Assembly: GCF_001447785.1 (NCBI RefSeq)
Contig: NW_015164181.1
Location: 2,082,891-2,146,890 of the forward strand
Origin: Gekko japonicus
Taxonomy: Eukaryota
Length of the DNA stretch: 64,000 nt
Direction: 5' to 3'
The first letter of the stretch is position 1, and each line of letters starts with the position of its first letter. Of the stretch, positions 1 to 30,490 are shown in pieces. The translations under genes and the position numbers were made by a program. The notes beneath the pieces are model-generated. The model worked only from the letters and a program-made list of their open reading frames with translations, did not search any database and was not told where the DNA came from.

Positions 1-518
1 TTAGCTTGGAGAAACGACGACTGAGGGGAGACATGATTGAGGTTTATAAGATAATGCATGGGATAGAGCAGGTAGAGAAAGAGGTACTTTTCTCCCTTTC
101 TCACAATACAAGAACTCGTGGGCACTCCATGAAACTGCAGAGCGGTCGGGTTAGAACGGATAAAAGGAAGTACTTCTTCACCCAAAGAGTGATTAACACA
201 TGGAATTCACTGCCACAGGAAGTGGTGGGTGCTACAAGCATGGACGGCTTCAAAAGGGAATTAGATAAGCATATGGAGCAGAGGTCCATCAGTGGCTATT
301 AGCCACAAGGTATAGCTAGGGGCTCTGGGGCAAGTGATGCTCTGTCTTCTTGGTGCTTGGGGGGGGGGTCAACAGTGGGAGGGCTTCTAATGTCCTGGCC
401 CCACTGCTGGACCTCCTGATGGCACTGGTATTTCTGGCCACTGTGTGACACAGAGTGTTGGACTGGATGGGCCTTTGGCCTGATCCAACATTGGCGTCTC
501 TTATGTTCTTATGTTCTT
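1..518 (+). mobile_element. CR1 LINE 3' end (ORF2 C-terminus, 3' UTR and (TTCTTATG)n tail), continues upstream of the window
   Basis: ORF 6-302 LEKRRLRGDMIEVYKIMHG...RTRGHSMKL...KYFFTQRVINTWNSLPQEVV is typical CR1 ORF2 C-terminus; octamer tail tcttatgttcttatgttctt at 499-518. Confidence 0.93.
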
Positions 519-909
519 AACATAATGGGCTCTAGAAACCAAATTGACTACTATTATTTTATTAAACTGCATTCTTCAATCCACCTGCAGCCCCACTGGC
601 TTCAGCTCAGTCTCATTGCTTGCGAGAGAGCCATCCATTTGGCTCATTAGCCCCAGGTGTTCCTCTTGATTTGGCAGTTGCCAGGCAGCGAGGCACACGC
701 TCCGCCTCCTCCTGAGGAGCTCCAAGCGCGCCCTCCTCCTCCTGTGTTCCCCTGGCTCCGGGGAAAGGAGAGGCGAAGCAGCCTGTGAAGTCTCCCCAAG
801 ATCTTGGGTTGTTGAGGCGCTTCCTCTCCGGGTTGCCTCTTCCGTGTTCCCAGTGCTCATGGGGCTGGAGTATATGCTGACCTTAGCAACTGGGGCACTA
901 GGACCTGCC

Positions 910-1614
910 ATCCGGAACCTAAAAAGGTAAGTCAAACAGAACAGAGGGCCAACAATAAAAACTTAATGCATATAGTATAAAAAGATACCTGTATTTATTA
1001 ACAAAGAATTAAAGAACATATAAGGGCCCAATCACACCTCATGTAAAAATACCAAAATCTAGCACACAAGGGCCAGTGGACTTGACCTGACGTGTTTCAG
1101 CCCGCTCTTTGCTTAAAGGACAGTTTTACTGAGGACACTTTGGCTAAACAATCATTGGAAGGTGCTTTCTGGACCAGAAATTGTTATCAGTGAAACATCA
1201 TTTGGCATGTGATTGCATCTTTGGAGGCCTCATTTATACTTTTATTCTGTGCCTAGTGGTTTCACTTTGGAACAATTCTTTTCTGGTCCATCTTGTATCT
1301 ATGTTGCTTAATTGTATGATTGTACTGTATTATGATATAAGCCAATATGCTCATCATTGTGTTTGACCTCTGAAGAAAGCCTATACAGGCTGAAATGCGT
1401 CAGGTCAAGTCCACTGGCCCTTGTGTGCTAGATTTTGGTATCTTTACATGAGGTGTGATTGGGCCCTTGTATGTTTTTTAATTCTTTGTTAATAAATACA
1501 TGTATCTTTTTATACTATGTACATTAAGTTTTTATTGTTGGCCCTCCATTCTGTTTGAGTTACCTTTTTAGGTTCTGGATCCTAGGTGTCAGGGATAATC
1601 CCCCCCCCCTTTTT
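910..1614 (+). mobile_element. Penelope-like element relic: inverted pseudo-LTR arms, 34-bp tail and 16-bp TSD
   Basis: Arms 910-1102 and 1388-1580 are reverse complements (about 12 mismatches in 193 bp); unpaired tail 1581-1614; TSD GGCACTAGGACCTGCC at 894-909 and 1615-1630; hammerhead motif inside. Confidence 0.85.
1363..1408 (+). ncRNA. Minimal type I hammerhead ribozyme motif (Penelope-type)
   Basis: Stem I TTGACCT(1363-69)/AGGTCAA(1402-08); core CTGAAGA 1370-76; stem II AGCCT-atac-AGGCT; GAAA 1392-95; short palindromic stem III ATGCGT; predicted GUC cleavage after 1401. Confidence 0.82.
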
Positions 1615-3081
1615 GGCACTAGGACCTGCCTCCACCATCTCAGGGTTGTTGACCGCATCAGCTGGTTGAGTCTCGGAGTTGCTAATGGGGATGTTATCAG
1701 CATCAGCTGAGTGATCCTCAGCTAAAGCAGGCTGGCGCAGGATACATTTTCGGGTCCCCCCAACTATGCACAAGTGGAGAGGAAGTGCATGAGCAAAAGT
1801 CCAAGCCCAAGGACTTTCTCCTTTGTTCTCCTCATAAGTAAACTGGATTTGTTAATGAACTATGAATACAGCCTATGTAAACTAATGTATCACAAGAAAA
1901 ATGACCAGGTGCTGGTTTGTGTTCTTTAAATTCACATTACCCTTCTTGTCATGTGGTGGCAACTCATCTGTGCATTGTAGTCTGCAGCCAAAATGAAGCC
2001 ATGCGCATACTGTACTATCTGAAAAGCTGGCATTGAGAAATGCCAAAAGAGTCACCCGCGGGGACCCTGCAAATGCAGGTTTCCAAGCTTAGTCAGCGGC
2101 TGCTGTGTTGAAATCCTTGGAATTCACTCCAGGGTCTTAAGCCCGAGAAAAGCAAGCCAGTTGTTCTGTGCATTAATAAATCAATGAGAGCTGGTGTGTT
2201 AAGCTCGTAAAAAAAGAGGGTGAACTAGGATTGTTTTACAGCAAGCACTTGCAGACAGCAAAAGCTGCATGTAGCTATTAGAGACTTTGCGAAATAACCG
2301 ATTTCAGGCTGCCAAGCGCCAGCTCCTGATGCGGCGTTGGAGCTTTTGAAATGGAAAGAAAGAATGAATCCTTTTGAAGATCCCCTGGAATTTTTGTTGA
2401 AGCCTGCCTGAGGACAGAACATTACAGCAATTTAATTCATTACTCCACTTAAAGATTTCCCCCCAAATATATATATATATATATACACATCCATACACAT
2501 ATGGATGAAACGTTTATAAACCTCAGTGGGTGTTCAGCTTGCTGAATGGAGCAGGTCTCTTTGAAGGTTTGCTTTACAAGGTGCTCAGGGATGGTTTACA
2601 GCAGAGAAGGCCTATTGGATAAGCAAGGAGAAGAACAGACTGGCAATTGGACTGAGGGCTGGTGCTGATGACACAGCTTTGTGTGGGGTTCTTGCTGACA
2701 GAGGAGTTGGCTTGGTGATGTTGAAAACCTGCAATATAAAAACATACCAGGCAAAGTGGAAAGAAAATTTTAACAACAGAAGAAACCTGGAACGGGTACT
2801 AAAACCCTATCTCCACCCAGTTCAATTTCAAACAGTTAAGAGGTGTATTGTTTGCAGAAGATGCTCACACTTGGCCTTGGGAGGGACTTGCGGGGTGGGA
2901 CGACACTTTTTCAGGTGAAAGGGAGCCACTAAAAATGTGCCTCTGCATGCCCGCTTGGCACAGGGTTGTTAAATCTGCCCATGGCCGTCTTTGAAGTACT
3001 GGCGGGAGTTGCAGGGCCCCAGCAGGAGAGGAGACGGGGCTGTCCCTGGCTGCCCTTGGATGGGTCACGTAGCTCTGTGAC

Positions 3082-4153: not shown

Positions 4154-4202
4154 GGCTGACGAAATTGAGATGATCATGACGGACCTTGAAAGAGCAAATC
4201 AG
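4154..4202 (+). CDS. CUX1: CUX1 exon 9 equivalent (49 bp), (K)ADEIEMIMTDLERANQ, coiled-coil
   Basis: ttcctcccag acceptor and CAG|gtagga donor; translation identical to recalled human CUX1/CASP. Confidence 0.96.

Positions 4203-30280: not shown

Positions 30281-30490
<210 letters not shown>

What the first reader, a model, noticed from the sequence alone, without database searches (positions are those of the whole stretch)
894..1630. Sense-strand hammerhead ribozyme in CUX1 intron 8, masked by its own upstream antisense arm
Seen: a complete minimal hammerhead (1363-1408) in the CUX1 transcription direction, inside a Penelope-like relic with 193-bp inverted arms (~94% identical), a 34-bp tail and a 16-bp TSD. 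The left arm ends in the middle of the ribozyme, so 1082-1102 is complementary to 1388-1408 (half of stem II, GAAA, stem III, the cleavage site and 3' stem I). The two copies carry different CpG mutations (GAAATGCGTC and GAAACACGTC), which points to an ancestral GAAACGCGTC. AUGCGU can still self-pair through G-U wobbles. Established: Penelope-like elements carry minimal hammerheads that cleave best as dimers and often have inverted pseudo-LTRs with a short tail. Inference: the antisense arm is transcribed first and would sequester the catalytic half, which could make a sense ribozyme tolerable in an essential pre-mRNA. Editing or unwinding of the duplex could also act as a switch.
Basis: partly seen in the sequence, partly recalled or inferred. 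Interest (0 to 1): 0.7.

Follow-up and report, generated by a model that had tools for sequence, protein, structure and literature searches.

The report
Decayed spliced Penelope leader in CUX1
This is an old, mutated piece of a common jumping gene that landed in an intron of the CUX1 gene of a gecko-like lizard; its small self-cutting RNA is likely inactive and its mirror-image arm is likely a by-product of insertion, but the family shows a clean split between short spliced copies and long intron-keeping copies that bears on how these elements copy themselves.

Summary
The anatomy is real: 16-bp target duplication, 193-bp arms (12 mismatches), 34-bp tail and a minimal hammerhead at 1363-1408, sense in CUX1 intron 8. 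The arm is predicted to pair over the ribozyme's 3' half. The functional reading is not supported. The insert is one copy of a repeated family: the spliced 5' leader (pLTR) of a Neptune-type Penelope-like element, copied twice head to head. Two GT-AG introns of the family are precisely missing here, and in a long copy the tail runs into ORF1. This ribozyme has three changes beside the core, no partner copy within 85.6 kb, and needs a dimer. Arms are common (14 of 56 copies) and start at scattered places; 3 of 14 cover the cut site. Side result: among 56 copies picked by a ribozyme motif, 20 of 21 that begin at the transcription start are spliced (one unclear) and 4 of 4 reaching upstream keep their introns; this argues for sense templates of two kinds. 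The scan noted a similar spliced fold-back in another genome (e1-9506236). Orientation bias and cleavage were not testable.

The parts
894..909 (+). left target-site duplication (16 bp)
   Evidence: single copy in 7 of 7 paralogues of the host repeat
910..1102 (-). inverted, 5'-truncated second copy of the leader (equals 1388-1580), without the tail
   Evidence: 193 nt, 12 mismatches
1103..1179 (+). leader exon 1; begins at the family's recurrent 5' end, about 30 nt below a TATAAA box that only long copies carry (inferred transcription start)
1180..1272 (+). leader exon 2; a 83-94-nt GT-AG intron of the family is precisely missing at 1179/1180
1273..1614 (+). leader exon 3 with ribozyme and tail; a 90-98-nt GT-AG intron of the family is precisely missing at 1272/1273
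1363..1408 (+). minimal type I hammerhead, core letters intact, three changes from the family majority (G1378A, C1391T, C1396T); predicted cut after 1401
1491..1496 (+). AATAAA, candidate polyadenylation signal of the pLTR (also present in a sister subfamily)
   Evidence: function inferred
1581..1614 (+). 34-bp tail, between the family's two recurrent 3' ends; ORF1 ATG follows about 35 nt later in long copy L183
1615..1630 (+). right target-site duplication
603..1745 (.). older interspersed repeat (603-909 and 1615-1745) into which the element inserted
4154..4202 (+). next CUX1 exon (exon 9 by count), 2.75 kb downstream of the predicted cut site

Best explanation
The insert is a decayed copy of the spliced 5' leader (pLTR) of a Neptune-type Penelope-like retrotransposon, present twice head to head, likely made when the element's enzyme cut both target strands and began reverse transcription at two internal sites of an uncleaved leader RNA, so that the arm over the ribozyme is likely a by-product and the ribozyme likely does not cut CUX1 pre-mRNA. 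Shown: family membership, link to ORF1 and an RT/GIY-YIG ORF, exact loss of two introns, two recurrent 3' ends, tail at one end only, scattered arm lengths, CpG decay, no partner copy. From the literature: internal initiation at two sites and extension of both strands (Poseidon of Anolis, in vitro); inactivity of a single minimal hammerhead. Inferred: that the same mechanism made this copy, and that it is neutral.
For: Family: 106 matches from 40 scored of 2328 candidates; 62 exact matches of a 27-nt ribozyme motif. L183 (85-98% identical to the window pieces) reads tail > ORF1 > RT/linker/GIY-YIG ORF > 3' UTR > exon1-intron-exon2-intron-exon3 with hammerhead; a sister subfamily (L179, about 70% identical in the pLTR) has an open 769-aa ORF with RVT_1 and GIY-YIG over Pfam cut-off, a CxxCxxC linker, the same TATA box, two introns and a hammerhead with another loop II. 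Introns precisely absent in the window. In 28 loci with both orientations, 26 have the tail at exactly one end, 0 at both, and in 20 the tail-less end stops at 1565-1585, as expected from two initiation sites (PMC11167929). Head-to-head arms in 14 of 56 motif-selected copies, starting from 1319 to 1535; 3 cover the cut site. Neutral-looking decay: ribozyme CpG positions 0.73 conserved against 0.72 for all CpG positions and 0.94 for other positions (29 copies); only 4 of 80 ribozyme copies keep core, G10.1-C11.1 and CGCG together. No second copy and no second hammerhead motif in 85.6 kb covering intron 8 and the window.
Against: All catalytic core letters of this copy are intact and the 10.1-11.1 pair changed on both sides to A-U, the only such pair in 80 copies; given A at 10.1, a T at 11.1 is expected in about 13 of 80, so this is weak. 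3 of 14 unbiased arms start at 1383-1408, more than the 0.8 a uniform spread would give, and six more among the biased top hits; junction microhomology with the leader's first letters (CTG, ACT) may explain this but was only inspected by eye. No cleavage, nascent-RNA or orthology data were obtained.
Confidence: 0.85

Rival explanations
1. One reading: the ribozyme can cut, and the copy survived in an essential pre-mRNA because the arm, transcribed first, sequesters its catalytic half; editing or unwinding would release it as a switch.
For: Sense orientation in CUX1 intron 8; arm predicted to pair 1388-1408 with probability near 1; core letters intact; retrozymes are somewhat depleted in Xenopus introns, though 42-44% still lie there (bioRxiv 10.64898/2026.07.22.740005).
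Against: Single minimal hammerhead inactive, dimers weak; protein needed for the Anolis PLE ribozyme; no partner in cis; three changes beside the core and a weaker dimer helix; intronic hammerhead cleavage reported compatible with splicing; such arms arise in about 3 of 56 copies anyway. Released from the arm, the ribozyme would still lack helix III.
Confidence: 0.05
2. The ribozyme is irrelevant, but the 193-bp duplex has a mild effect on CUX1: it would be an ADAR substrate and would hide a sense AATAAA (1491-1496) and a strong donor-like AAG|GTAAGT (923-932), lowering the cost of a sense insertion.
For: Both signals lie inside the predicted duplex; the arms are still 93.8% complementary.
Against: Arm divergence (about 3% per arm) is in the range of the family's general decay; intronic AATAAA and donor-like words are common; too few locus-specific reads to see editing (12 of 741 reads at 99% or more in three raw RNA runs).
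Confidence: 0.1

Closest known systems
EN+ Penelope-like elements, Neptune clade (scheme in PMC8557442, passages read)
   Same: pLTR with hammerhead, head-to-head inverted 5'-truncated copy, 30-40-bp tail at one end, upstream ORF1, CX2-5CxxC linker before a C-terminal GIY-YIG, intron(s) in the 5' UTR.
   Different: The window holds only the leader, with both introns removed; the paper stresses intron retention and calls its significance unknown. Clade assignment rests on architecture; no RT tree was built.
Poseidon of Anolis carolinensis (PAc; PMC11167929, main text read)
   Same: Two internal reverse-transcription starts that define the tail; both strands extended; uncleaved RNA as template. 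The window copy spans the cut site uninterrupted.
   Different: In PAc the ORF starts inside the ribozyme; here ORF1 starts about 250 nt after the cut site, behind the tail, and the element has two ORFs.
Minimal hammerheads of metazoan PLEs (PMC4209133, results and discussion read)
   Same: Type I, extra nucleotide between 9 and 10.1, palindromic 15.2-16.2/loop 3, mostly single dispersed motifs.
   Different: This copy has lost the conserved G10.1-C11.1 pair (A-U) and the perfect palindrome; the family majority has both.
Non-LTR retrozymes (bioRxiv 10.64898/2026.07.22.740005, parts 1-3 of 5 read)
   Same: Non-coding pLTR-derived unit with a type I hammerhead.
   Different: Not a tandem array, not circularly permuted at the cut site; fixed start below a TATA box and an autonomous parent in the same family.
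Conserved intronic hammerheads of amniotes (RECK, C10orf118; passages in PMC10761166)
   Same: Hammerhead in an intron of a host gene.
   Different: Those cleave as single motifs and match curated models (their conservation across amniotes is recalled and in a cited title; the paper itself was not held); this one is minimal, repeat-borne, decaying and has no Rfam match.

Membership tests
EN+ Penelope-like element (Neptune type) | pLTR linked to an ORF with RT and C-terminal GIY-YIG | tested here: met
   L183, L150, L157, L158; Pfam RVT_1 and GIY-YIG in sister L179. The window copy itself has no ORF.
EN+ Penelope-like element (Neptune type) | upstream ORF1 and CX2-5CxxC linker | tested here: met
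   ORF1 in L183 and L179; CGRCEDC (L183, broken frame) and CGGCQVC (L179) before GIY
EN+ Penelope-like element (Neptune type) | inverted 5'-truncated copy, tail at one end, target duplication | tested here: met
EN+ Penelope-like element (Neptune type) | RT phylogeny places it in the Neptune clade | not tested
Minimal type I hammerhead | CUGANGA, GAAA, UH with stems I and II | tested here: met
Minimal type I hammerhead | G10.1-C11.1 closing pair and palindromic helix III | tested here: not met
   window has A-U and AUGCGU; family has G-C (64 of 80) and majority ACGCGU
Minimal type I hammerhead | second copy nearby for dimer formation | tested here: not met
   none in 85.6 kb
Minimal type I hammerhead | self-cleavage | not testable with these tools
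   needs a bench assay
Rfam hammerhead families | match to a curated covariance model | tested here: not met
   no hammerhead family among 8 hits at E<=10 on 1-3000
Non-LTR retrozyme | tandem units each with a hammerhead | tested here: not met
   single ribozyme, head-to-head partial copy
Exapted intronic ribozyme | orthologous conservation across species | tested here: inconclusive
   the one orthologous-looking contig of another organism (X12 record 16, window 1649-2450) stops before the junction; empty-site joints may come from paralogues of the host repeat

The most novel reading that the evidence does not exclude
This family explains why Penelope-like elements keep their introns. The pLTR holds promoter, two introns, ribozyme, AATAAA and the two internal RT start sites. 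A fully processed mRNA, cut at the downstream AATAAA, keeps RT start sites only in its spliced 5' leader and so yields short spliced leader copies like the window's. Only sense RNA not yet 3'-processed, whose terminal introns are therefore still in place, keeps the downstream start sites and yields long, intron-bearing copies that can found new masters. No antisense template is needed.
Probability: 0.3. Interest if true: 0.7.

Novelty: new member of a known kind. Interest (0 to 1): 0.3.

Why it matters
As a CUX1 regulatory ribozyme it would be a rare natural case of a self-cleaving RNA held off by its own antisense arm; the evidence makes that unlikely. The family data matter more. Intron retention by Penelope-like elements is called unexplained in PMC8557442, and PMC3846280 proposed an antisense template for head-to-head inversions and intron retention while leaving an unspliced sense template open. 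Here a head-to-head insertion has both introns precisely removed, so at least its long copy came from spliced sense RNA, and splicing state follows the copy's 5' extent almost perfectly. With intact sister elements in the same genome (L179, L067) the model can be tested in cells or in vitro.

Tried and rejected
Rfam scan: no hammerhead model. First GIY-YIG survey found intact Neptune-type elements of other families, none the parent; a 32-nt tail-like match in L075 (E 4e-4) was set aside as low-complexity. Idea that arms end at the ribozyme cut site (cleaved RNA as template): only 1 of 28 listed arms starts at 1402; rejected. Idea of a stand-alone SINE: rejected once long copies ran upstream into the ORF. 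RNA runs: no RNA holder listed; three raw RNA runs of a same-label organism gave mostly paralogue reads (12 of 741 at 99% or more), no pile-up of ends at 1401/1402; standard libraries would not show a cut well, so this is no evidence either way. Orthologous presence or absence unresolved. Polyadenylated genomic copies ending near 1515: 3 of 123 3' ends at 1510-1519, none with a clear A tail; no support from this for use of the AATAAA. AATAAA is kept in 94 of 96 fuzzy matches (0.994 against 0.947 for A/T positions), which I do not take as selection in dead copies. Orientation bias among intronic copies: not run, no gene annotation. Literature searches showed no paper describing the spliced-short versus unspliced-long split; subscription papers (Arkhipova 2003, 2006), Repbase entries and supplements were not seen and may describe it.

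Full report
Observation. The 16-mer at 894-909 recurs at 1615-1630. The flanks belong to another interspersed repeat; all 7 paralogues examined carry the 16-mer once with both flanks adjacent, which fixes the insertion ends. The arms 910-1102 and 1388-1580 are 193 nt with 12 mismatches and the tail is 34 nt. The hammerhead has stem I (7 bp, extendable to 9), CUGAAGA, an extra A, a 5-bp stem II, GAAA-UGCG-UC and a predicted cut after 1401. It is the only hit of my descriptor on either strand; random windows with the same dinucleotide frequencies give 0.025 hits at loose and none at strict settings in 200 trials. Rfam finds no hammerhead here. The host gene is CUX1 on the + strand; seven upstream exons lie on the same contig, the last ending about 22.8 kb before the cut site, and the next exon is 4154-4202. 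With one unlocated first exon this is intron 8. The exon matches lizard and gecko proteins at 99-100%.

The family. A search of the own genome scored 40 of 2328 candidates and returned 106 matches; a 27-nt ribozyme motif matches exactly 62 times. Many copies start at window position 1104. Some copies carry 83-94 extra bases at 1179/1180 and 90-98 at 1272/1273; these begin GTAAC and GTAAG and end TAG and CAG: two spliceosomal introns that the window copy lacks precisely. Intron-bearing copies continue upstream through a TATAAA box 30 nt before the recurrent start and into the end of a GIY-YIG ORF. L183 is nearly full length: tail, ATG of ORF1 about 35 nt later, a broken RT/GIY-YIG ORF, then the unspliced pLTR with an intact-looking ribozyme. 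A sister subfamily about 70% identical in the pLTR has an open 769-aa ORF with RVT_1 and GIY-YIG, and keeps TATA box, two introns, AATAAA and a hammerhead with a different loop II. So 1103-1614 is the spliced 5' leader of a Neptune-type Penelope-like mRNA. The Neptune label rests on ORF1 plus the CxxCxxC linker (PMC8557442, passages); no tree was built.

How the insert was made. Frangieh et al. (PMC11167929, main text read) showed in vitro that a lizard PLE protein cleaves and extends both target strands, starts reverse transcription at two internal sites that bound the tail, uses mainly uncleaved RNA, and that its hammerhead cleaves only with protein. The family fits: of 123 3' ends, 43 fall at 1570-1589 and 65 at 1590-1614; of 28 loci with both orientations 26 have the tail at exactly one end and none at both, on either the long or the short copy. 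The window copy runs through the cut site without a break, so its template was uncleaved. Both arms share two departures from the family majority (1391T, 1414C), consistent with one source. Applying the in vitro mechanism to this copy is inference.

Is the masking special? I held 57 of the 62 motif matches (56 after dropping one segmental duplicate). Fourteen have a head-to-head arm; the arms start at 1319, 1339, 1389, 1408, 1408, 1426, 1434, 1447, 1478, 1483, 1485, 1495, 1496 and 1535 (four 5'-inversions listed by the script were dropped by hand and three arms it missed were added). Three cover the cut site. So an arm like the window's turns up in about 1 copy in 20. There is a mild excess of starts at 1383-1408 (3 of 14 against 0.8 if uniform); several junctions there share 2-3 letters with the leader's first bases, and the stem II hairpin may stall the enzyme; both are unproven.

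Is there anything to mask? Against the family majority the window ribozyme has G10.1A, C11.1U and C15.2U. G10.1-C11.1 is listed as highly conserved in PLE hammerheads (PMC4209133) and is kept in 64 of 80 copies; A-U occurs once. The dimer helix falls from -7.5 to -3.9 kcal/mol. A single minimal hammerhead showed no detectable cleavage and dimers only low cleavage. No second copy or motif lies in the 85.6 kb from exon 8 to the window's end. CpG sites in the ribozyme decay like CpG sites elsewhere in the element (0.73 against 0.72; other sites 0.94-0.96; 29 copies), and only 4 of 80 copies keep core, closing pair and palindrome. Even an active hammerhead need not be harmful: PMC2995048 (passages) reports that introns cut by a hammerhead were still spliced, whereas a fast HDV ribozyme blocked splicing. 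Against my reading: the core letters are intact and the A-U pair restores Watson-Crick pairing; neither is unlikely by chance. RNA reads gave no usable test, and orthology stayed unresolved.

The side result. I classed 103 distinct loci by 5' extent and intron state (14 duplicates dropped first). Script counts: reaching upstream of the start, 15 retained, 1 spliced (L043, 41 nt upstream), 1 unscored; starting at the start, 41 spliced, 2 retained, 1 mixed, 1 unscored; 5'-truncated, 18 spliced, 13 retained, 10 unscored. The two 'retained' start-site copies (L152, L165) have upstream ORF sequence and were misfiled, and the mixed one (L108) holds an unrelated 93-nt insertion. This pooled set is biased, because L001-L030 were found with the spliced query and L150-L169 with the ORF. 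In the motif-selected set of 56 the table is 4 retained/0 spliced upstream against 0 retained/20 spliced (plus L108) at the start, Fisher p = 9e-5; in the 16 copies found with a 5' motif, 3/1 against 0/10, p = 0.011. No copy clearly has one intron removed and the other kept. Arkhipova et al. (PMC3846280, discussion read) proposed an antisense template to explain head-to-head junctions and intron retention, leaving unspliced sense RNA open; Schostak et al. (PMC2377424, passages) proposed selection against intronless elements; Craig et al. call the significance unknown. The window's head-to-head insert with exact intron loss shows a spliced sense template for its long copy. My model (inference): processed mRNA cut at the pLTR AATAAA keeps RT start sites only in the leader; RNA that still has the downstream start sites has not been 3'-processed and so keeps its terminal introns. 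Coupling of terminal splicing and 3'-end formation is established (PMC3737548, abstract start in listing only). I found no direct sign that the AATAAA is used, and an antisense template for the long copies remains possible. Searches listed no paper on this split, but subscription papers, Repbase and supplements were not seen.

Verdict. Observation confirmed; functional masking unlikely (about 0.05); an ordinary decayed Neptune-type PLE leader copy (0.85). Interest 0.3, carried mostly by the family-level splice pattern.

Noticed in passing
L067-L071 (G000:C3894, C4962, C7827, C11188, C15143): A young Neptune-type family with open ORF1 (276 aa) and ORF2 (763 aa), inverted pLTRs 99% identical, two intron-like stretches in the pLTR, the second ending at helix I, and a hammerhead-like motif with U3-A8 in place of C3-G8 (read by eye).
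   Followed up: partly
L179, L180, L181, L182: Sister subfamily with open ORFs and a perfect minimal hammerhead (G10.1-C11.1, ACGCGU, loop II GAUUC); a natural active-looking control for assays.
   Followed up: partly
window 923-932 (+): The inverted arm carries AAG|GTAAGT, a consensus splice donor in the CUX1 direction; on the element's own strand this is the pyrimidine-rich stretch before the tail.
   Followed up: no
L012, L016, L082, L045: Short inversions of the leader's first 20-45 bases at the 5' junction, making small palindromes like those described in rotifer Penelope copies.
   Followed up: no
L043 = G000:C12859:702045: The one spliced copy that also carries the TATA box (41 nt upstream of the usual start); an exception to the splice pattern.
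   Followed up: partly
L110, L123: Copies whose arm covers the whole ribozyme, giving two hammerheads on opposite strands.
   Followed up: no
window 1-520: 3' end of a very abundant LINE-like repeat ending in short TTATGTTC repeats (CR1-like by recall), shared with several fetched loci.
   Followed up: no
window 30314-30382: Small CUX1 exon (about 22 codons) present in isoform P0007 but not P0002.
   Followed up: no
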